Below are positions 13,995 through 45,195 of a DNA stretch of 64,000 nt, piece after piece. A program made the translations under genes and the position numbers. Under the pieces are notes generated by a model, which saw only the letters and a program-made list of their open reading frames with translations, had not been told where the DNA came from and ran no database searches. Origin of the DNA: Bacillota bacterium (GTDB taxonomy: Bacteria > Bacillota > Clostridia > Christensenellales > CAG-138); the NCBI GenBank assembly GCA_023390655.1, contig JAEWCL010000020.1:3275-67274 (forward strand). Reading direction: 5' to 3'. Positions within the stretch are counted from its first letter, which is position 1; the number at the start of each line of letters is the position of its first letter.

Positions 13995-14963
13995 TTATCC
14001 GATGGGCGCGTAGCCTGCGGGCGGGGTGATGCTAAGCGCCTCTGCGATTGCAGGATTGTAGAGCTTTTCAAATTTGGGCGCGTAGGCGACGGGCATGGTG
14101 GAGATGTCGCTTTCCCCGGTAAGGACTTTGTAGGCCATCTCGCCCGTTGCATAGCCAAGATCATAATAATCGATGGACAGCGTGGCGACACCGCAGCCTA
14201 CGCAGATGCCCTTTTCGCCGGCAATAATGGGTACGCCTGCGGGCTGGCAGATGCTGTCGATAATGCCGGTGTTGGAAGCGACCGTATTATCCGTAGGCAC
14301 ATAGATGACGTCACTGGCGTTGGCGGCGGTAGTCGCAACGGCAGCAAGATCATTGGTGTCCGCAAAGGGGTACATCGTGCAGGTGTAGCCCATTTCTTCA
14401 AGCATGACTTTTACCGTCTCCACCTGATAAAGCGAATTGGGCTCTGCCGAGCAGTACAATAGACCCACATTGGCTGCATCCGGGAAGAATTCCTTGATCA
14501 TGGCAGCCTGCTGGTCCAGCGGCGCCAAGTCGCTTGTGCCGGATATATTGCCGCCTACGGTACCGTTGAAATCTTTCAGGCCCAGCGCCACGCCATATTC
14601 CGTAATGGAGGTACCCAAAATGGGGATGTCGCCGGTGGCGGCGGCCGCCGCCTGCAGCGCGGGCGTCGCATTCGCCATAATCAAATCCACTTTCGCGGAG
14701 ACAAAGCCGTTTGCGATGGTGGCGGCGGTAGAGGAATCACCTTGGGCATTCTTCTCATCAAAGCGCACCTTGTCGCCGAGCTTCTCGGTCAATGCATCGC
14801 GAAAGCCCTTGGTGGCCGCGTCCAGAGCCTCATGCTGGACGAGCTGTGAAATACCTACAACATAGGTTTTATCGGCGGAAGCCCCGCCTTTTGCGCAGGA
14901 GGCCAGCATGAACACCATAGCACAGCAAACCGCCACTGCAATCCATTTACGAAATTTCCCCAT
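13995..14963 (-). CDS. ABC transporter substrate-binding lipoprotein (ABC_sub_bind / BMP-related family; TrpX-like class)
   Basis: Lipobox MLASCAKG. Pattern YVVGISQLVQHEALD ... PILGTSITEYG. Start moved to ATG 14963, 8 nt after GGAAAGGA. Confidence 0.8.
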   Translation of the reverse strand: MGKFRKWIAVAVCCAMVFMLASCAKGGASADKTYVVGISQLVQHEALDAATKGFRDALTEKLGDKVRFDEKNAQGDSSTAATIANGFVSAKVDLIMANATPALQAAAAATGDIPILGTSITEYGVALGLKDFNGTVGGNISGTSDLAPLDQQAAMIKEFFPDAANVGLLYCSAEPNSLYQVETVKVMLEEMGYTCTMYPFADTNDLAAVATTAANASDVIYVPTDNTVASNTGIIDSICQPAGVPIIAGEKGICVGCGVATLSIDYYDLGYATGEMAYKVLTGESDISTMPVAYAPKFEKLYNPAIAEALSITPPAGYAPIG

Positions 14964-15023
14964 ATCAATCATCCTTTCCGTTCTGCGGCACTTTATCACT
15001 GTTATGTGCTAAAGTGCGCTTGC

Positions 15024-15056
15024 ATTGTATTGTAAGTCATATACGGAAAAAGTCAA
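15024..15056 (-). promoter_or_regulatory. Sigma-A-type promoter for the three-gene ABC importer
   Basis: Minus strand: TTGACT (15056-15051), 16-bp spacer, TACAAT (15034-15029). Confidence 0.55.
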
Positions 15057-15250
15057 GAAAAAAATCCCCGGATAGCAAAATCGTTTATAAAAATACAGGT
15101 AAAAGTACAGGTGCATTTTTGCGTTTTCAAACACGCCCCAGTGAAAGCTGTTTATGTTTTTCATACTCCATGGCGCGCAAAACGTGGTATAGTAGCAAAA
15201 GAATCAAGCGGATGCTTGATGTGGAAACAAACGGCAAAAGGAAGTTATGT

Positions 15251-15937
15251 ATGATGCTGATGGGCGCAATGGTCAATGCGGTTCTGATTATCGCAGGCGG
15301 GCTAATGGGTATTCTGTTTCAAAAAGGGATTCCTGAAAAGGTAAACCGCACGCTGACGCAGGGCTTGGGGCTGTGCGTGCTGTATGTTGGCATCAGCGGT
15401 ACCCTGAAAGGGGAGAACATCATCGTTGTGATTTTATCTGTGGTGATCGGCGCGGTCATTGGGGAGCTATTGGATTTTGAAAAAAGGCTCCAGCGGATGG
15501 GGGATTGGCTGCAGGCCCGGATGAAATTCGGCGGTTCCAACAGTACTTTTGCGGAGGGATTTGTCACCTGCACGCTGATTTATTGCGTGGGCGCTATGGC
15601 GATTGTCGGCTCCCTCCAAAGCGGCCTAGCCGGGAACCATGAGACCCTCTACGCGAAATCCCTGCTTGACGGTGTGATGTCGCTTGTCATGGCTTCCACG
15701 CTGGGCGTTGGAGTCGCGTTCTCCGCCGTCCCGGTATTGCTGTATGAAGCGCTGCTGACCGTATCCGCACATGCAATCTCGGGCTTTCTTACGACGCCCG
15801 TCATCAATGAAATGACCTGTGTCGGCTCCCTGCTGATTGTGGCCATCGCCCTGAATCTGCTCAAACTGACCAATATCAAGGTCAGCAATTTTATCTTAGC
15901 GCCATTTCTGCCGATTGCTTTATTGTACCTGTTCTGA
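15251..15937 (+). CDS. DUF554-family integral membrane protein (paralog 1)
   Basis: MMLMGAMVNAVLIIAGGLMGILFQKGIPEKV..., with a second half containing ETLYAKSLLDGVMS. Start moved to ATG 15251, behind AAAAGGAAG. Confidence 0.8.
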   Translation: MMLMGAMVNAVLIIAGGLMGILFQKGIPEKVNRTLTQGLGLCVLYVGISGTLKGENIIVVILSVVIGAVIGELLDFEKRLQRMGDWLQARMKFGGSNSTFAEGFVTCTLIYCVGAMAIVGSLQSGLAGNHETLYAKSLLDGVMSLVMASTLGVGVAFSAVPVLLYEALLTVSAHAISGFLTTPVINEMTCVGSLLIVAIALNLLKLTNIKVSNFILAPFLPIALLYLF

Positions 15938-39940: not shown

Positions 39941-40357
39941 TCAATCGCTGCAACATTTGCCGCGGGCATAACGCACCAGCCGGTCATTGAGATTGCCGGT
40001 GTGCAGCTCAAAAAGGTGATTGTCATAATCATAAAAATACAGGGAACTGCCTTCGCCGTCTATCCGGGGACGGTCCTGCCGGATGGTTAACCCGAGCCGG
40101 TGGATTTTTTCGCGGTATGCGTCCAGCTGTTCGGGCTGAATTTGAAAGGCAATGTGGTTATAGGTTTCTATGGGTAACGGCGGGCCTTCCATAATGCAGA
40201 ACCATATGCCGCAGATCAGAAAAAACTTTTCGCGGCTGATAGAAAATGGTACATCACCGCTTGCGTAGACCTCCTGCGCCCCAAACAGGTCTTCGTATAG
40301 CGCACCGGTACGGTCAATATCCTTGACGATGCGCGTGATATGGCTAAGTCCCAGCAT
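39941..40357 (-). CDS. fosX: Fosfomycin resistance protein, FosX-type (VOC/glyoxalase-fold metalloenzyme)
   Basis: Near full-length pattern match to FosX as recalled: LSHITRIVKDI, SREKFFLICGIWFCIMEG, TYNHIAFQI, RPRIDGEGSSLYFYDYDNHLFELHTG and LNDRL. Confidence 0.8.
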   Translation of the reverse strand: MLGLSHITRIVKDIDRTGALYEDLFGAQEVYASGDVPFSISREKFFLICGIWFCIMEGPPLPIETYNHIAFQIQPEQLDAYREKIHRLGLTIRQDRPRIDGEGSSLYFYDYDNHLFELHTGNLNDRLVRYARGKCCSD

Positions 40358-40420: not shown

Positions 40421-40456
40421 ACAAAAAAGGCAGCTGCCGGAGCAGCTGCCCTTTTA
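40421..40456. terminator. Bidirectional terminator ending the UbiD/UbiX operon
   Basis: 9-bp stem GGCAGCTGC / GCAGCTGCC with a 4-nt loop. The minus strand is followed by TTTTTTGT. Confidence 0.8.
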
Positions 40457-40469
40457 TCATGGATTACAA

Positions 40470-41339
40470 TCAGTTGCGGGAAGAAAGGTACAACAGCACC
40501 TGCGGCAATGCCTGCAACAGCCAATAGGTATAGCGTTCCGGGTGCTGTCTTACGTCCTGCATCAGGGCTTCGGGTTCCACCCAGCGGATCTCCTCCACTT
40601 CCTCCGGGCAGAACGTGACCGGGCCGTCATACCTGCCGATCATCACGTGATCAAGCTCGTTTTCCGTCAACCCGTTTTCAAACGCTTTTTCATACCGGAA
40701 GTGAAAGAGTTCCTCAATCGGCGCATGAAACCCCATTTCTTCCATCAGCCTGCGGGAGGCCGCATCGGCAAGCTGTTCGCCCCATGCGGGATGACTGCAG
40801 CAGGTATTGCTCCATAGGCCGCCCGAATGGTACTTTTCCGCATGCCGCTTTTGCAGCAGCAACCTGCCTTGGCTGTTGAATATGAATATGGAGAACGCGC
40901 GGTGCAGCCTGCCCTCCTGATGGGCCTGCAGCTTTAAAATGGGACGTATAGCTTGATCCGCCTCATCCACTTCCACGATGTACGCTTGCAGCAGATGCGT
41001 TACATGCGCGCCGACAAGTTCCCGTACCGCTTCGATTTCCTCAGGCGTGATGCGGTCCACATGAATGCCCGCGGCGACGGACACATGCTTTTGCAGCCGT
41101 TCGCACAACACATTTGATACATATTCCGCCACATCGCTGTCCTTATGCCCGGTTCGGTTGAAGGTGGAGGTCGTGGCGCGCGGGCTCTCGCCGTCCAGAA
41201 GGCTGGGGCGGGGAACGCTGAACGTTACGCAGCCGATGTGCGCATCGCCGCCCGAAAGCGAGACTATAAGATCTTCTCCCATTGGGATGGCGATCAAACG
41301 GATATGGATGCGCCCGCGCGAAAGCGTCTGTTCGTACAC
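40470..41339 (-). CDS. Fusion protein: LpdD-like (UbiD-decarboxylase accessory / prenylated-flavin chaperone family) N-terminal domain plus type-1 isopentenyl-diphosphate delta-isomerase (Nudix fold)
   Basis: GTG start 8 nt after AAAGGAG. N-terminal motifs: SGGDAHIGCVT, TGHKDSDV and AAGIHVDRIT. C-terminal motifs: LHRAFSIFIFNSQGRLLLQKR, WSNTCCSHP (catalytic Cys) and LTENELDHV (catalytic Glu). Confidence 0.75.
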   Translation of the reverse strand: MYEQTLSRGRIHIRLIAIPMGEDLIVSLSGGDAHIGCVTFSVPRPSLLDGESPRATTSTFNRTGHKDSDVAEYVSNVLCERLQKHVSVAAGIHVDRITPEEIEAVRELVGAHVTHLLQAYIVEVDEADQAIRPILKLQAHQEGRLHRAFSIFIFNSQGRLLLQKRHAEKYHSGGLWSNTCCSHPAWGEQLADAASRRLMEEMGFHAPIEELFHFRYEKAFENGLTENELDHVMIGRYDGPVTFCPEEVEEIRWVEPEALMQDVRQHPERYTYWLLQALPQVLLYLSSRN

Positions 41340-41370
41340 GTTCCCAGCTCCTTTCTTATGGCGAGGGTGA

Positions 41371-41973
41371 TTATGGCGTAGGCTCCATCCAGCGCTTCAA
41401 GCCTTGGTAAGAAACGCCGAATTGATCGAGTATTTTGCCTACCAGGTGCGCATTGAGCTCCTCAAGCGTCTTTGGCCTGTGGTAATAGGATACCATGGGC
41501 GGCAGAATCATTGCACCCATTTCGCTCAGCGAGAGCATATTGCGCAGGTGGATGGTGCTAAGCGGCGTTTCCCTTGCAACCAGCACAAGCTTGCGGCGCT
41601 CTTTTAAAATGACGTCAGCCGCCCGCAGGATCAGATTGTCCGAATAGCCGCATGCAATGCCCGCGACGGTTTTCATGCTGCAGGGAACGATGAGCATGCC
41701 TTCCGTACGGAAGGTGCCGCTTGCGATGCTCGCACCGATGTTCGAAAGCGCGTGCACCTGATCGGCAAGGGCATATACCTGCTCGGGCGTGTAGTCCGTC
41801 TCCTGCGCGATGGTCAGCTCCGCGCCCTTTGAAATGACAAGGTGCGTTTCAAATGCGCCGGTCTCCTTGAGCGCCTTTAGCACCTCAATCCCAAGCAAAG
41901 CGCCGCTGGAGCCTGTCATGGCGACAATCAGCCGTTTGCGGAACGTATCGGCAACATGGGGCATATCCTTCAT
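41371..41973 (-). CDS. ubiX: Flavin prenyltransferase UbiX (prFMN synthase)
   Basis: RLIVAMTGSSGALLGIEVLKAL, LIVPCSMKTVAGIACGYSDNLILRAADV and KERRKLVLVARETPL. Start set to ATG 41973, 8 nt after GAGGA. ATG 41982 and ATG 41964 are alternatives. Confidence 0.88.
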   Translation of the reverse strand: MKDMPHVADTFRKRLIVAMTGSSGALLGIEVLKALKETGAFETHLVISKGAELTIAQETDYTPEQVYALADQVHALSNIGASIASGTFRTEGMLIVPCSMKTVAGIACGYSDNLILRAADVILKERRKLVLVARETPLSTIHLRNMLSLSEMGAMILPPMVSYYHRPKTLEELNAHLVGKILDQFGVSYQGLKRWMEPTP

Positions 41974-41984
41974 TCCTTCCATCC

Positions 41985-42704
41985 TCAGCTGATGTAGGTG
42001 ACCCACAGATAGGAAATCGGCATCACAATCACCAACGCCGGCAGCATATTTGCAATCGCAAACGATTTGATACCGCTGATGCGGAGGCCCGTTGCCAGCA
42101 TGATCATGCCGCCGCAAGCGGTAAAGTCCGCGATCATGGCTTCGTTTGTCAACGGCAGGATGAATGTGGCGCTGAAGAACAGTGCCAGCAGCACCACAAC
42201 CTGGGGCACGCAGATGGCCATGACGAGATACCCAAGGGATGCCGCAAATATGGCGGAAGTGAAGAAGTCCAGTATGGATTTTGTCAGCAGTACGGAATGA
42301 TCCCCGGTCATCCCTTCCTTGAGCGCGCCGAAGATACCCGTGCCGCTGGCGCAGAACAGGATCAGGATGCCTACGAACTTCTCCATGAACTCCGCCTGGC
42401 TCTGATTGCTGCTGCCGCCGGAAAAGAGCTTTTCTACCGGGCCTTTTGCCTTAATGGCGACGGTTTCAATGCCTTTTTCCAGGCGGATGAGCTCACCAAT
42501 CGCCGTACCGACGATGAGAGAGAGCACCACTGCGGGCAGCGTGTGCATCTTGACGATGTAGTTGATGCCCATGGACATGGAAGCGGCGCCAAACACAAGG
42601 GGCAGGGAGGTGCGTAAGCGTTCAGGAATCTTTTTTCCCAGCAGCGCCCCCAAAAGTCCTCCAAACAGAACAGCAAGGCTGTTTACGATAACGCCAATCG
42701 GCAT
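41985..42704 (-). CDS. DUF554-family integral membrane protein (paralog 2), embedded in the UbiD/UbiX operon
   Basis: MPIGVIVNSLAVLFGGLLGALLGKKIPERL... with the same architecture as 15251-15937. RBS AGAGGGGG. 20-nt gap after ubiD. Confidence 0.8.
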   Translation of the reverse strand: MPIGVIVNSLAVLFGGLLGALLGKKIPERLRTSLPLVFGAASMSMGINYIVKMHTLPAVVLSLIVGTAIGELIRLEKGIETVAIKAKGPVEKLFSGGSSNQSQAEFMEKFVGILILFCASGTGIFGALKEGMTGDHSVLLTKSILDFFTSAIFAASLGYLVMAICVPQVVVLLALFFSATFILPLTNEAMIADFTACGGMIMLATGLRISGIKSFAIANMLPALVIVMPISYLWVTYIS

Positions 42705-42724: not shown

Positions 42725-44206
42725 TTAGTTGAACAGCTCAGGTGCAAAACGGGCGGGATCAAGCTCCATAAACTTGGAGCGCTGGAATTTTTCCTTGAGC
42801 GCATATGGCACGGTGCAGTCGAAAATCACCTTGCAGGAAATGCCGCGGTCCCGGATCATGGGATTATAGGCGGTGTTCTCCGAAGGATCGAGCGGATGGC
42901 ACCTGACGCCGGGAATGAATATGGTATCGATATCCCCCTGGTAACGGGTGTTGAGCGCCCACATGACGTCGTTGCTGTCAAACGGGTCCACGTCCTCATC
43001 GACGAGGATGACATGCTTGAGCTCTGAAAACGCGGAGAACGCAAGCAACGCTGCCTGCCTCTGGCGGCCTTCGTCGCTGGGCTGGCTCTTTTTAAACTGC
43101 AGCACGGCCATATATTTGCCGCCGCCCGAAGCGTGCGCATAGACGTTTACCAGCCTGCCGGGCATGGCCTTTTCCACCATCTGCAGAATGCTCGCTTCCG
43201 TGGGAATGCCCGCCATGTTGACATGTTCCTCGCTGGGCCCGATGCACGTCTGCAAAATGGGATTCTTGCGGTGGGTGACCGCCTTTACCTTGATGATAGG
43301 CAGCTCGGGATATGCGCCGCCGGTATAGCCGGGGAATTCCGGCATGGCCTTGCCGGTGTTGGTGTTGATATCCTCGCGGATGCGCTTGTTGGGCAACAGC
43401 TCGCCTTCAATGACATATTCCGCGTTGGCGATTGCCTTTTCCCCAACGGTGATGCAATTGACAAGTTCCACGGGCGCTTTTCTGATTGCACCCGCGATGC
43501 TCAGCTCGTTATAGCCAAGCGGCGTTGTCGGGGGTTCAAAGCATGCGCCGATCTCGATAGCGGGGTCCACGCCGATGCTGATGGAAATGGGCAGCGGCTT
43601 GCCGGCGGCCTCCGCCTTTGCGCGGAATACTTCAAGATGCCGCGCGCCGGGGACGAAGTACATGGAGATTTCATCCTTGCTCTGCAGGCAGAGACGGTGG
43701 ATGGTGATATCGGATTCGCCCGTCTCCGGGTCGGAAGCGTAGCACATGCCCATCGTGATGTAGGGGCCTGCGTCCTCTTCCGTATTGGTGGGTGCGGGAA
43801 CAAGCTTTCTTACATCAAAGCCCGGTTCATCCGCACGGTATACAACTTCCTGGCAGGCGGCTTTTTCATTGGAGACCACCACGGGCGCAACGGGGCTTTT
43901 GACAGCTTCGTTGAGCAGGAACCCAAGCTTTTCCGGCTCTGCGCCAAGCATCAGCGCAACGCGCTTGCGGCTGGCGAGAAGGCCGATGATGACTTTTGCG
44001 TCCGGATGCCCTTTGACGTTGTTGAAGAGCATTGCGGGACCAATGCGCGTGGGACGCTTAACCGTGCCGCCGGCACCGACATACCGGTAAACGCCGGAGA
44101 TTTCCGCATGGGGATCCGCAGGTTCGTTCGTCTCGTACAGCTCTCCGGGGATGCTTCTGAGAAGCTCCAACGCGGAACGCAAGCTGTCGATTTTCTGTTC
44201 TGACAT
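42725..44206 (-). CDS. UbiD-family prFMN-dependent (de)carboxylase, AroY/LpdC-like (phenolic-acid decarboxylase subgroup)
   Basis: ISGVYRYVGAGGTVKRPTRIGPAMLFNNVKG, DAGPYITMGM, GKAMPEFPGYTG, IGPSEEHVNMAGIPTEASI and ILVDEDVDPFD. RBS AGGAGGAA. Confidence 0.88.
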   Translation of the reverse strand: MSEQKIDSLRSALELLRSIPGELYETNEPADPHAEISGVYRYVGAGGTVKRPTRIGPAMLFNNVKGHPDAKVIIGLLASRKRVALMLGAEPEKLGFLLNEAVKSPVAPVVVSNEKAACQEVVYRADEPGFDVRKLVPAPTNTEEDAGPYITMGMCYASDPETGESDITIHRLCLQSKDEISMYFVPGARHLEVFRAKAEAAGKPLPISISIGVDPAIEIGACFEPPTTPLGYNELSIAGAIRKAPVELVNCITVGEKAIANAEYVIEGELLPNKRIREDINTNTGKAMPEFPGYTGGAYPELPIIKVKAVTHRKNPILQTCIGPSEEHVNMAGIPTEASILQMVEKAMPGRLVNVYAHASGGGKYMAVLQFKKSQPSDEGRQRQAALLAFSAFSELKHVILVDEDVDPFDSNDVMWALNTRYQGDIDTIFIPGVRCHPLDPSENTAYNPMIRDRGISCKVIFDCTVPYALKEKFQRSKFMELDPARFAPELFN

Positions 44207-44367: not shown

Positions 44368-45195
44368 CTATTCCCTTGATACAGGCACCTGTATCCGGCA
44401 AAAATCCGCGTTAACCGCTGGGGTGTGAAATGTTGTGTCCAAGATGCATTCATCCAGTATGGGGCCGGTTACCGTATACTGGTTGTCCCTGATCCAACAA
44501 AGTAGGTCGCGTAAAATCTGTGTGGAATACGGCATGGCGTATTTATAAAGGCAGATATAATCCCCACCCTTTAAAAACACCGTGTTCTCGGATTTAAACG
44601 CATCCTCTTCCGGGATAAACATAAAGATGCCGGCGTCATGGAGCATACGCTCCGCCTCTTCATCATAACTGCGGATAAACGTGCCAAAGCCCGCAGCGGG
44701 GAGCAGGTTATGGCTGTTCAGGATATTCCACGCCTGCATCATCGTCAGGTGCAGCCTGGGCCGGTCTACTGTGCCTCCAAACGGCACAAATACCGCGTGG
44801 CGGTCCGGAAATCTCTGCAAGAAGGGCTTGTTTGTTTCATCCCGGTAGGTCTCGGCGTTTTCATAATTGGTCAGGCGGCGCTCGATGTACTTTTTTTGTT
44901 TGGTCAGCGCGCGGATTTGCGCATCGATTTGCACATGGTGGTATTTGAGAAGCTCCGTGGTGGACGGCAGGTTCCGGTCCTTAAGGTTTGCTTTGATACG
45001 TTCAAGGTCCACGCCGATGGATTTTAAAAAGCAGATTTCCCGCAGATATGGAATTTGGTATACGCTGTAGTACCGGTAGCCGTTCTCATCAATATGGTGC
45101 GGCTTAAACAAACCGATCTTGTCATAGTAGATCAGTGTTTGCCTGCTGATATTATGGATGCTTGCCATTACGCTGATTTGCAGATATTCATTCAT
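44368..45195 (-). CDS. MerR-family transcriptional regulator with a C-terminal GyrI-like effector-binding domain (BmrR-like architecture)
   Basis: N-terminal HTH: ISVMASIHNISRQTLIYYDKIGLFKPHHIDENGYRYYSVYQI. Coiled-coil segment, then a C-terminal about 150-aa ligand-binding-type domain. Start moved to ATG 45195. Confidence 0.82.
   Translation of the reverse strand: MNEYLQISVMASIHNISRQTLIYYDKIGLFKPHHIDENGYRYYSVYQIPYLREICFLKSIGVDLERIKANLKDRNLPSTTELLKYHHVQIDAQIRALTKQKKYIERRLTNYENAETYRDETNKPFLQRFPDRHAVFVPFGGTVDRPRLHLTMMQAWNILNSHNLLPAAGFGTFIRSYDEEAERMLHDAGIFMFIPEEDAFKSENTVFLKGGDYICLYKYAMPYSTQILRDLLCWIRDNQYTVTGPILDECILDTTFHTPAVNADFCRIQVPVSRE

What the first reader, a model, noticed from the sequence alone, without database searches (positions are those of the whole stretch)
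40470..41339. LpdD-like accessory domain fused to isopentenyl-diphosphate isomerase
**N-terminal domain (seen).** A single 289-aa ORF starts at GTG with a good RBS. Its N-terminal roughly 120 aa carry GGDAHIGCVT, GHKDSDV and AGIHVDRIT. These are the motifs I recall from the LpdD / 'prenylated flavin chaperone' family.

**C-terminal domain (seen).** The C-terminal roughly 160 aa are a type-1 IDI (Nudix fold). The catalytic Cys (NTCCSHP) and Glu (ENELDHV) are intact.

**Inference.** The fusion physically couples DMAPP production (IPP to DMAPP) to the prFMN hand-over step. Alternatively, the Nudix-fold domain could have drifted towards DMAPP-to-DMAP hydrolysis to feed a DMAP-specific UbiX. Either would be a new link between isoprenoid metabolism and prFMN maturation.
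Basis: partly seen in the sequence, partly recalled or inferred. Interest (0 to 1): 0.75.

Follow-up and report, generated by a model that had tools for sequence, protein, structure and literature searches.

The report
LpdD chaperone fused to IPP isomerase
The last gene of a phenolic-acid decarboxylase operon really does join a carrier protein for the prenylated-flavin cofactor to the enzyme that makes the cofactor's prenyl donor; this fusion has arisen several times in gut anaerobes, sits unremarked in databases as "IPP isomerase", and has never been studied.

Summary
Window 40470-41339 (minus strand) is one 289-aa ORF. Residues 1-120 are an LpdD-family domain (Pfam PF21758, E 9e-31) with all three LpdD metal ligands. 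Residues 121-289 are a type-1 IPP isomerase that scores above both NCBIfam equivalog cut-offs and keeps every E. coli IDI catalytic, metal and diphosphate residue. It is not a frameshift artefact: homologues at 71-75% identity keep the fusion inside the same cassette, MerR / AroY-type UbiD / DUF554 / UbiX / LpdD::IDI.

The architecture is not unique. About 80 further protein clusters, mainly Collinsella, Coriobacterium and Enorma, carry LpdD+IDI. They are auto-annotated as "IPP isomerase" or "NUDIX hydrolase". Domain trees suggest at least three independent fusions. Clostridium thailandense and Faecalicatena contorta have lpdD and idi adjacent but unfused.

The best reading is that IDI tops up DMAPP for a UbiX of the DMAPP-accepting type, and that LpdD takes the prFMNH2 product to the decarboxylase. 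No paper I could search describes this link.

Verdict: a new variant of known parts, of moderate interest.

The parts
40470..41339 (-). lpdD::idi fusion gene, 289 aa, GTG start; last gene of the operon
   Evidence: ORF; both domains; identical gene call on the ENA contig.
40980..41339 (-). LpdD (prFMNH2-binding chaperone family) domain, aa 1-120. H34, H65 and D67 correspond to LpdD H35, H61 and D63.
   Evidence: Pfam PF21758 E 9e-31. PDB LpdD E 2e-4 with an alignment showing the ligands. H34, H65 and D67 are invariant in 56 fusions. Foldseek match to 8p4w, TM 0.68.
40470..40979 (-). Type-1 isopentenyl-diphosphate isomerase domain, aa 121-289 plus stop. Functional residues: K136, H140, H146, R165, K169, C181, H183, R197, E201, Y216, E226, E228, W273.
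   Evidence: NCBIfam equivalogs above cut-off. PDB IDI 1e-19. Residue table against E. coli IDI. Foldseek match to 1nfs, TM 0.82.
41348..41354 (-). Ribosome-binding site AAAGGAG, 8 nt before the GTG
   Evidence: Read from the sequence (reverse complement of 41340-41360 is CATAAGAAAGGAGCTGGGAAC).
40421..40450 (-). Intrinsic terminator: 13-bp GC-rich hairpin followed by UUUUUU, 20 nt after the fusion's stop codon. The palindrome also reads as a terminator on the + strand.
   Evidence: Fold: -29.3 kcal/mol, z -5.05, 0 of 200 shuffles as stable. The stem at 40429-40450 is listed.
41371..41973 (-). ubiX / lpdB flavin prenyltransferase, 200 aa. It has His at the PaUbiX-F181 / O157-UbiX-H164 position.
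   Evidence: Pfam Flavoprotein and NCBIfam UbiX. PDB 1sbz 2e-62 and 6qlg 2e-60 with alignments. 200-aa gene call.
41985..42704 (-). DUF554 membrane protein, 239 aa; a conserved cassette member and a candidate substrate or product transporter (inference)
   Evidence: Pfam DUF554 E 1e-65. Found in the same position in L001, L002, L009, L028 and L050.
42725..44206 (-). UbiD-family decarboxylase of the AroY / protocatechuate decarboxylase type, 493 aa
   Evidence: Pfam UbiD_N, UbiD and UbiD_C. PDB AroY 5ny5, 5o3n and 5o3m, E about 1e-211, 705 bits.
44368..45195 (-). MerR-family regulator (275 aa by homologues' gene calls), first gene of the cassette
   Evidence: Pfam MerR and MerR_1. 275-aa calls in L001 and L002.

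Best explanation
**What it is.** The gene encodes a genuine bifunctional protein. It closes a five-gene, probably phenolic-acid-inducible operon:
- a MerR regulator
- an AroY-type prFMN-dependent protocatechuate/gallate-class decarboxylase
- a DUF554 membrane protein
- the UbiX flavin prenyltransferase
- LpdD::IDI

**Proposed mechanism.**
1. The C-terminal IDI domain isomerises IPP to DMAPP. This raises the supply of the dimethylallyl donor exactly when the operon is switched on.
2. The UbiX, which resembles DMAPP-accepting UbiX enzymes, uses that donor with FMNH2 to make prFMNH2.
3. The N-terminal LpdD domain binds prFMNH2 and delivers it to the apo-decarboxylase.

The fusion therefore brackets UbiX: it supplies the substrate on one side and takes up the product on the other.

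**Shown versus inferred.**
- Shown: domain identities, residue conservation, operon context, recurrence of the fusion and of unfused lpdD-idi adjacency.
- Inferred: enzymatic activities, DMAPP as the actual donor, and any physical docking on UbiX or channelling.
For: **Domains.** Pfam and NCBIfam hits are above the curated cut-offs. PDB sequence hits go to LpdD and IDI. The AF2 model is confident, and Foldseek matches it to 1nfs (IDI) and 8p4w (LpdD).

**Residues.**
- All 13 E. coli IDI functional residues are kept.
- The LpdD metal ligands H34, H65 and D67 are invariant across 56 fusions. Their role is described in PMC10865409.

**Context.**
- The operon is tightly spaced. A strong terminator follows directly after the fusion gene.
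- The same cassette is present in P0002 and P0003 loci with different flanks.
- Coriobacterium glomerans PW2 has the same five gene families in another order.

**Rosetta-stone evidence.**
- About 80 LpdD+IDI clusters exist.
- In NJ trees the window lineage is sister to stand-alone Clostridium LpdDs and to a stand-alone IDI. It never groups exclusively with other fusion lineages: 0 of 40 LpdD and 0 of 25 IDI bootstrap replicates for every pairing except one, window lineage plus P0362, which grouped in 1 of 25 IDI replicates.
- C. thailandense and F. contorta carry ubiX-lpdD-idi as separate adjacent genes.

**Prenyl donor.**
- The window UbiX is closest to O157 UbiX (uses both DMAP and DMAPP) and to A. 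niger PAD1 (DMAPP-specific).
- It carries His at the beta-phosphate-contacting position. So do 33 of the 39 UbiX ORFs from the collected loci, mostly LpdD-adjacent; 4 more carry Gln (PMC6541611).

**Origin of the IDI domain.** The closest stand-alone IDI sits in an unrelated housekeeping context. The domain was therefore recruited from an ordinary IDI clade.
Against: - No activity has been measured for any LpdD::IDI protein.
[quoted passage not shown] The donor therefore remains an inference.
- Only 3 of the 42 LpdD loci found in named genomes have an IDI fused or adjacent. IDI is an optional add-on, not a core part of the system.
- Fusion of adjacent genes can be selectively near-neutral, so recurrence alone does not prove channelling.
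- I could not establish whether the organism has another IDI, or which isoprenoid pathway it uses. Only 64 kb is visible, and it holds no second IDI.
- The largest fusion lineage (Coriobacteriia) has Ala at the catalytic Cys67 position, with a Cys one residue earlier. Its chemistry may differ from that of the window protein.
Confidence: 0.6

Rival explanations
1. The Nudix-fold domain is really a DMAPP (or IPP) pyrophosphohydrolase. It makes DMAP for a DMAP-dependent UbiX, as E. coli NudB, NudF, NudI and NudJ do.
For: - The domain has a Nudix fold.
- It matches the Nudix box at more positions than E. coli IDI does: E188-x7-R196 R197 L M E200 E201 M G203 F.
- E. coli Nudix hydrolases are a documented DMAP source (PMC12359138).
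- An archaeal LpdD locus (L039) has a non-IDI Nudix gene 2.3 kb away.
Against: - The domain scores above the cut-offs of two IDI equivalog models. It scores far below those of the Nudix-hydrolase models: YfcD 40 against 152, Nud_hyd_Meth 43 against 300.
- Every IDI-specific residue is present: C67, E116, Y104, W161 and the His3Glu2 metal site.
- The extra Glu in the box is shared by the whole clade of stand-alone proteins annotated as IDI.
- The best structural matches are IDIs.
- The UbiX has the polar residue that accommodates the DMAPP beta-phosphate.
Confidence: 0.1
2. The fusion has no mechanistic meaning beyond co-expression. A stop codon was lost between adjacent lpdD and idi genes, the two domains act independently, and IDI simply balances the general IPP/DMAPP pool.
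For: - Unfused adjacent lpdD-idi pairs exist in C. thailandense and F. contorta.
- Most LpdD loci lack any IDI.
- IDI-1 and LpdD have no known interaction.
Against: - The fusion arose independently several times and persists in abundant lineages.
- In the window lineage the junction has no linker. The LpdD C-terminal helix runs straight into the first IDI strand, and pTM 0.87 indicates a fixed mutual orientation.
- Even under this reading, the operon-level link between IDI and UbiX/LpdD still stands.
Confidence: 0.22
3. The IDI-like domain acts on a prenylated flavin species rather than on IPP. For example, it could catalyse an acid-base isomerisation or a maturation step on prFMN held by the LpdD domain.
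For: - IDI chemistry (Cys/Glu protonation-deprotonation at an allylic carbon) resembles steps proposed for prFMN formation and maturation (PMC6541611; PMC13040415).
- The domain is rigidly attached to a prFMNH2-binding domain.
- The Coriobacteriia lineage shows an altered catalytic Cys position.
Against: - All diphosphate-binding residues (K136, R165, K169, R197, E201) are kept in the window protein, whereas prFMN has a single phosphate.
- The domain is 55-60% identical to ordinary stand-alone IDIs.
Confidence: 0.04
4. The fusion is a sequencing or assembly artefact that joined two genes.
For: None found.
Against: - The identical protein occurs on 5 independent contigs.
- The fusion is conserved at 97%, 75% and 71% identity, with an in-frame junction.
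- Dozens of further fusion clusters exist, including one in the complete genome of Coriobacterium glomerans PW2.
Confidence: 0.01

Closest known systems
LpdD of Lactiplantibacillus plantarum (lp_0272; PDB 8p4w, 8pzh, 8po5), the prFMNH2-binding chaperone (PMC10865409)
   Same: - Same Pfam family.
- Same fold (Foldseek TM 0.68).
- Same H/H/D metal-ligand triad.
- Encoded next to the UbiX homologue and serving an AroY/LpdC-class decarboxylase.
   Different: - Only about 26% identical over the Foldseek structural alignment to 8p4w.
- L. plantarum LpdD is a stand-alone protein of about 130 aa. Here its C-terminal helix continues directly into an IDI domain.
Type-1 isopentenyl-diphosphate isomerase (E. 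coli Idi, PDB 1nfs, 1hx3; human IDI1)
   Same: - All catalytic, metal and diphosphate residues are kept.
- The NTCCSHP motif is the same as in eukaryotic IDI1.
- TM 0.82 and rmsd 1.9 A to 1nfs.
- Scores above the equivalog HMM cut-offs.
   Different: - It is a C-terminal domain of a larger protein inside a prFMN operon, not a housekeeping isoprenoid gene.
- About 30% identical to E. coli Idi and 55-60% identical to uncharacterised stand-alone IDIs.
Unfused ubiX-lpdD-idi gene strings in Clostridium thailandense PL3 (L016) and Faecalicatena contorta (L023)
   Same: - Same three functions in the same order.
- The C. thailandense LpdD is about 50% identical to the window's LpdD domain, and its IDI about 53% identical to the window's IDI domain.
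- C. thailandense LpdD lies in the sister clade of the window's LpdD domain.
   Different: The two genes are separate, with gaps of roughly 45-200 nt. These strings probably show the pre-fusion state.
Coriobacteriia LpdD::IDI proteins (Collinsella spp., Coriobacterium glomerans PW2, Enorma sp.), auto-annotated as IPP isomerase or NUDIX hydrolase
   Same: - Same two-domain order.
- Same association with UbiX and UbiD. C. glomerans even has the same five gene families.
   Different: - Only 27-32% identical.
- They have a 15-25-aa linker.
- The catalytic Cys67 position is Ala, with a Cys one residue upstream, and K21 is Arg.
- They are a separate origin in the domain trees.
E. coli Nudix hydrolases NudB, NudF, NudI and NudJ, and ThiM, as DMAP suppliers for UbiX (Wang et al. 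2018, as cited in PMC12359138)
   Same: These are accessory enzymes that provision the prenyl donor for prFMN synthesis. They share the Nudix superfamily fold.
   Different: They hydrolyse DMAPP to DMAP and are unlinked housekeeping genes. The window domain has isomerase signatures, not hydrolase signatures, and is operon-encoded and fused.
PhdC / YclD prFMN maturases (PMC13040415)
   Same: They are another class of small accessory proteins encoded with UbiX and UbiD that help to activate the decarboxylase.
   Different: They have an unrelated fold (flavin-reductase-like) and act on the oxidation state of prFMN, not on precursor supply.

Membership tests
LpdD / Pfam PF21758 (LpdD_chaperone, formerly PAC_bac) | Significant match to the family HMM above the gathering score | tested here: met
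   106.3 bits against a cut-off of 27, E 9.3e-31, aa 8-119 covering profile positions 2-113 of 115.
LpdD / Pfam PF21758 | Conserved metal-binding triad His35-His61-Asp63 (L. plantarum numbering; PMC10865409) | tested here: met
   H34, H65 and D67 align to them and are invariant in 56 fusion proteins.
LpdD / Pfam PF21758 | Pba3/4-like beta-sandwich fold | tested here: met
   The AF2 model (pLDDT 94) matches 8p4w: Foldseek E 3e-7, TM (target) 0.68 over 125 columns.
LpdD / Pfam PF21758 | Encoded with UbiX and a UbiD-family decarboxylase | tested here: met
   UbiX is 31 nt upstream and the AroY-type UbiD is two genes upstream. Most LpdD loci show the same arrangement.
LpdD / Pfam PF21758 | Selective binding of reduced prFMNH2 and activation of apo-UbiD | not testable with these tools
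   This needs anaerobic biochemistry.
Type-1 isopentenyl-diphosphate isomerase (EC 5.3.3.2) | Score above the curated equivalog cut-offs | tested here: met
   NF002995 scores 152.8 against 127; TIGR02150 scores 112.8 against 105.8.
Type-1 isopentenyl-diphosphate isomerase | Catalytic Cys67 and Glu116, plus Tyr104 and Trp161 (E. coli numbering) | tested here: met
   C181, E228, Y216 and W273.
Type-1 isopentenyl-diphosphate isomerase | Metal site His25, His32, His69, Glu114, Glu116, and diphosphate/Mg site Lys21, Arg51, Lys55, Arg83, Glu87 | tested here: met
   H140, H146, H183, E226, E228 for the metal site; K136, R165, K169, R197, E201 for the diphosphate/Mg site.
Type-1 isopentenyl-diphosphate isomerase | IDI-type Nudix fold | tested here: met
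   Foldseek top hits are 1nfs, 1hx3 and 2i6k, E about 1e-15, TM (target) 0.82, rmsd 1.9 A.
Type-1 isopentenyl-diphosphate isomerase | IPP to DMAPP isomerase activity | not testable with these tools
   This needs an enzyme assay.
Canonical Nudix pyrophosphohydrolase (DMAPP to DMAP) | Complete Nudix box GX5EX7REUXEEXGU and a match to a hydrolase family model | tested here: not met
   The box reads S182-x5-E188-x7-R196 R197 L M E E M G F, so the Gly and the first Glu of the 'RE' pair are missing. Hydrolase models score far below their cut-offs: YfcD 40 against 152, Nud_hyd_Meth 43 against 300.
AroY / LpdC-class UbiD decarboxylase (neighbouring gene) | Full-length high-scoring similarity to characterised protocatechuate decarboxylases | tested here: met
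   5ny5 and 5o3n at E about 4e-211 and 705 bits over aa 4-493; 5o3m at E 2.5e-208 and 696 bits. The substrate itself was not tested.

The most novel reading that the evidence does not exclude
The rigid LpdD::IDI protein docks on the UbiX oligomer to form a small 'prFMN synthase' assembly. IPP enters this assembly. DMAPP is made and consumed locally. The oxygen-labile prFMNH2 is captured at once by the LpdD domain and passed to the AroY-type decarboxylase. That would mean channelling on both sides of UbiX. It would also establish DMAPP, not DMAP, as the physiological prenyl donor in these anaerobes.
Probability: 0.25. Interest if true: 0.7.

Novelty: new variant of a known kind. Interest (0 to 1): 0.5.

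Why it matters
**Open questions in prFMN biology.** Three things remain unsettled:
- what the physiological prenyl donor is (DMAP or DMAPP)
- where that donor comes from
- what LpdD actually interacts with

**What the fusion contributes.** LpdD is joined to the DMAPP-making enzyme. The fusion is found repeatedly in UbiX/UbiD operons and is very abundant in gut Coriobacteriia. This is natural Rosetta-stone evidence that precursor supply is co-selected with cofactor hand-over.

**Practical value.**
- It provides a ready-made reagent for testing donor identity and possible UbiX-chaperone complexes.
- It suggests adding idi (or the fusion) when AroY, LpdC or other UbiD enzymes are expressed for muconate or other bioproduction, where prFMN supply is limiting.
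- It flags dozens of database entries named simply 'IPP isomerase' or 'NUDIX hydrolase' whose N-terminal half is a prFMN chaperone.

Tried and rejected
**Searches that led nowhere or had to be repeated.**
- An N-terminal-domain-only word-indexed search returned just 3 hits because the prefilter was too coarse. I replaced it with a full HMMER scan, which found 1,734 family representatives.
- The genome scan with the 21-sequence LpdD alignment failed because no stretch was conserved enough. I re-ran it with a 4-sequence alignment.
Its taxonomy stays 'uncultured, Clostridia-like'. The basis is that the closest cassette homologues are Clostridium and Lachnospiraceae.
- The first tree script timed out. 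The second produced NaN distances for the LpdD domain. I fixed this by capping distances.

**Literature.** Seven searches found no paper describing an LpdD-IDI fusion or an IDI in a UbiX/UbiD cluster. The terms covered LpdD, prFMN, UbiX with IDI, Nudix, DMAP and DUF554.

**Ideas rejected.**
- Frameshift artefact. It is refuted by the conserved homologues.
- Recent horizontal transfer of the cassette. GC is 0.549 for the cassette against 0.541 for the window.
- The closest stand-alone IDI being itself UbiX-linked. It is not.
Full report
**1.

The ORF lies at 40470-41339 on the minus strand. It is 289 aa long and starts at GTG. An AAAGGAG ribosome-binding site ends 8 nt upstream (sequence).

Evidence for the N-terminal domain:
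- Pfam places aa 8-119 in PF21758 at E 9.3e-31. My local copy names this family PAC_bac. The precomputed annotations name it LpdD_chaperone.
- A plain sequence search of the PDB returns only L. plantarum LpdD (8p4w, 8pzh, 8po5) at E 2e-4.
- That alignment puts H34, H65 and D67 opposite LpdD H35, H61 and D63. These three residues form the Mn2+ site, and mutating them impairs prFMNH2 binding or activity (PMC10865409).

Evidence for the C-terminal domain:
- Pfam places aa 145-270 in NUDIX.
- NCBIfam places aa 120-277 in the type-1 IDI equivalogs above their cut-offs: NF002995 at 152.8 against 127, and TIGR02150 at 112.8 against 105.8.
- The PDB search returns E. coli, Salmonella and human IDI.

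Evidence from structure:
- An AlphaFold2 model built on 56 fusion homologues is confident, with pLDDT 94.4 and pTM 0.87.
- Foldseek matches its C-terminal half to E. coli IDI 1nfs (TM 0.82, rmsd 1.9 A). It matches its N-terminal half to LpdD 8p4w (TM 0.68).

**2. It is not an artefact**

- The identical protein is on five independent contigs in NCBI, Logan and ENA, the longest 739,967 bp.
- Three further clusters at 97%, 75% and 71% identity keep the uninterrupted fusion.
- In this lineage there is no linker. The LpdD C-terminal helix (aa 99-119) runs directly into the first IDI strand (aa 120-124).

**3. Context**

The gene is the last of a tightly spaced minus-strand operon:

| Gene | Coordinates |
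|---|---|
| MerR regulator | 44368-45195 |
| UbiD-family decarboxylase | 42725-44206 |
| DUF554 membrane protein | 41985-42704 |
| UbiX | 41371-41973 |
| LpdD::IDI | 40470-41339 |

- The gaps between the last four genes are 20, 11 and 31 nt.
- A strong hairpin plus U-tract follows 20 nt after the stop codon. It folds at -29.3 kcal/mol with z -5.05.
- The downstream FosX-like gene is therefore a separate transcription unit.
- The UbiD is of the AroY type. It matches protocatechuate decarboxylases 5ny5, 5o3n and 5o3m at E about 1e-211.
- The loci of P0003 and P0002 carry the same five-gene cassette with unrelated flanks.

**4. How common is the fusion?**

- A full HMMER scan of 1.84 billion representatives with an LpdD-domain profile found 1,734 family members.
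- Nearly all of the top 150 are stand-alone proteins of 105-190 aa.
- The two-domain exceptions confirmed by Pfam were the window's own cluster, a second LpdD::IDI protein (P0253) and a UbiX::LpdD fusion (P0131). Two other long hits, P0179 and P0217, matched no second Pfam domain.
- A profile of five fusions, searched against 5.8 billion proteins, then listed about 80 clusters at 90% identity with both Pfam domains. These proteins are 258-366 aa long, mostly 300-366 aa, and 26-40% identical to the window protein.
- Named examples are Collinsella stercoripullorum, Collinsella sp. An2, Collinsella sp. AGMB00827 and Coriobacterium glomerans PW2.
- Their source annotations read 'isopentenyl-diphosphate Delta-isomerase', 'NUDIX hydrolase' or 'NUDIX domain-containing protein'.
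- One cluster has 10,574 member sequences.
- The architecture is therefore common in gut Coriobacteriia and already sits in databases, but no function is attached to the fusion.
- C. glomerans PW2 carries LpdD::IDI, UbiD, DUF554, UbiX and MerR. These are the same five families in another order.
- An Enorma MAG has UbiX, UbiD and LpdD::IDI.
- The P0253 locus has UbiD, an EcdD/BsdD subunit, a transporter::UbiX fusion and LpdD::IDI.

**5. Independent origins and a pre-fusion state**

Nearest relatives of the window's two domains:

| Window domain | Stand-alone relatives | Any other fusion lineage |
|---|---|---|
| LpdD | Clostridium LpdDs, 49-55% identity | at most 41% |
| IDI | stand-alone IDIs, 55-60% identity | at most 49% |

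NJ tree results:
- The window lineage is sister to the stand-alone Clostridium and Bacillota LpdD clade and to a stand-alone IDI.
- It grouped exclusively with another fusion lineage in only one bootstrap replicate. That was window lineage plus P0362, in 1 of 25 IDI replicates. All other pairings scored 0 of 40 (LpdD) and 0 of 25 (IDI).
- A third lineage (P0377, P0378) is sister to stand-alone Coriobacteriaceae LpdDs.
- I therefore count at least three independent fusions.
- The caveats are that these are distance trees on short domains and that the Coriobacteriia lineage evolves fast.

Among 42 LpdD loci from named genomes:
- Clostridium thailandense PL3 and Faecalicatena contorta carry ubiX-lpdD-idi as separate adjacent genes. 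This is the likely ancestral arrangement.
- Close relatives of the cassette lack IDI altogether. Examples are Clostridium sp. SHJSY1, C. ljungdahlii, C. carboxidivorans and a Lachnospiraceae MAG.
- IDI is thus an optional, repeatedly recruited add-on.
- The closest stand-alone IDI (P0004) sits in an unrelated housekeeping context.

**6. What the C-terminal domain most likely does**

- Aligned with E. coli IDI, the window protein keeps every functional residue: K136, H140, H146, R165, K169, C181, H183, R197, E201, Y216, E226, E228 and W273. These correspond to E. coli K21, H25, H32, R51, K55, C67, H69, R83, E87, Y104, E114, E116 and W161.
- The Nudix box is incomplete, and hydrolase family models score far below their cut-offs.
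The sequence does not favour it here.
- A DMAP supply may also be unnecessary. PMC6541611 shows that A. niger and E. coli K-12 UbiX are DMAPP-specific, that O157 UbiX uses both donors, and that P. aeruginosa UbiX uses DMAP.
- In that paper a polar residue at PaUbiX-F181 (Gln203 in A. niger, His164 in O157) contacts the beta-phosphate.
- The window UbiX is closest to O157 UbiX (2e-62) and A. niger PAD1 (2e-60), and it has His at that position.
- So do 33 of the 39 UbiX ORFs from the collected loci, most of them adjacent to LpdD. Four more have Gln.

**7. Mechanism proposed**

1. A phenolic acid induces the operon through the MerR regulator.
2. The IDI domain converts IPP to DMAPP.
3. UbiX prenylates FMNH2.
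4. The LpdD domain binds the labile prFMNH2 and delivers it to the AroY-type decarboxylase.
5. DUF554 may move substrate or product across the membrane.

The domain identities, residue conservation, operon structure and recurrence are shown. The activities, the donor, the DUF554 role and any physical docking on UbiX are inferred. The rigid, linker-less junction and the high pTM make a defined two-domain unit plausible, but they do not prove channelling.

**8. Comparison with what is known, and novelty**

- Both domains pass every membership test I could run for LpdD and for type-1 IDI.
- What is new is their combination and the operon-level link between isoprenoid precursor supply and prFMN maturation.
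- Seven literature searches found no description of it. Reading the LpdD, PhdC and UbiX papers found none either.
- The architecture is widespread and auto-annotated, and each half is a known kind. I therefore rate this a new variant of a known kind, with interest 0.5.
- It is a useful, testable lead on the DMAP-versus-DMAPP question, on LpdD's partners and on UbiD enzyme engineering. It is not a categorically new system.

Noticed in passing
L003 7425-9383 (also L004 and L005 3-2027): A 652-674-aa protein fuses a Na_sulph_symp/CitMHS-type transporter to a C-terminal UbiX domain. It sits in the Coriobacteriia-type locus that also holds UbiD, an EcdD/BsdD subunit and LpdD::IDI. It is a membrane-anchored flavin prenyltransferase.
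   Followed up: no
P0131 (346 aa; metagenomic protein, no locus fetched): A UbiX::LpdD fusion: Flavoprotein domain at aa 1-172 and LpdD at aa 227-337, joined by a Gly/Pro-rich linker. This gives independent support for a direct UbiX-LpdD partnership.
   Followed up: partly
P0253, P0351, P0372; L047 9905-10873 (Coriobacteriia LpdD::IDI lineage): The IDI domain of this abundant lineage has Ala at the catalytic Cys67 position, a Cys one residue earlier (DTCAGHP) and Arg for Lys21. All other IDI residues are kept. P0253 passes NF002995 but not TIGR02150. The chemistry may be altered.
   Followed up: partly
L039 12637-13245 (Aenigmatarchaeota MAG): A Nudix protein that is not an IDI (Ser for Cys67, Met for Glu116) lies 2.3 kb downstream of a UbiX-UbiD-LpdD string. 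It could be a DMAPP hydrolase, the alternative route to a prenyl donor.
   Followed up: no
window 41985-42704 (-) and 14921-15934 (+): DUF554 membrane proteins of unknown function. One is a conserved member of the UbiD/UbiX/LpdD cassette in Clostridia, Lachnospiraceae and Coriobacterium. A paralogue (E 2e-25) lies elsewhere in the window. No informative literature was found.
   Followed up: partly
window 39941-40357 (-): A FosX/FosE/FosI-family fosfomycin-resistance hydrolase homologue (NCBIfam NF000222, 184 bits against a cut-off of 170) lies immediately downstream of the operon. The terminator separates it from the operon.
   Followed up: no
window 40429-40450: The perfect palindrome GGCAGCTGC-CGGA-GCAGCTGCC has a T-rich tail on the + strand and a U-tract on the minus strand. 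It can therefore act as a bidirectional terminator.
   Followed up: partly
window 41371-42117 (-): The mechanical ORF for UbiX (248 aa, TTG) overlaps DUF554. The real start is almost certainly the ATG at 41973 (200 aa), as called on the ENA contig and in homologues.
   Followed up: yes
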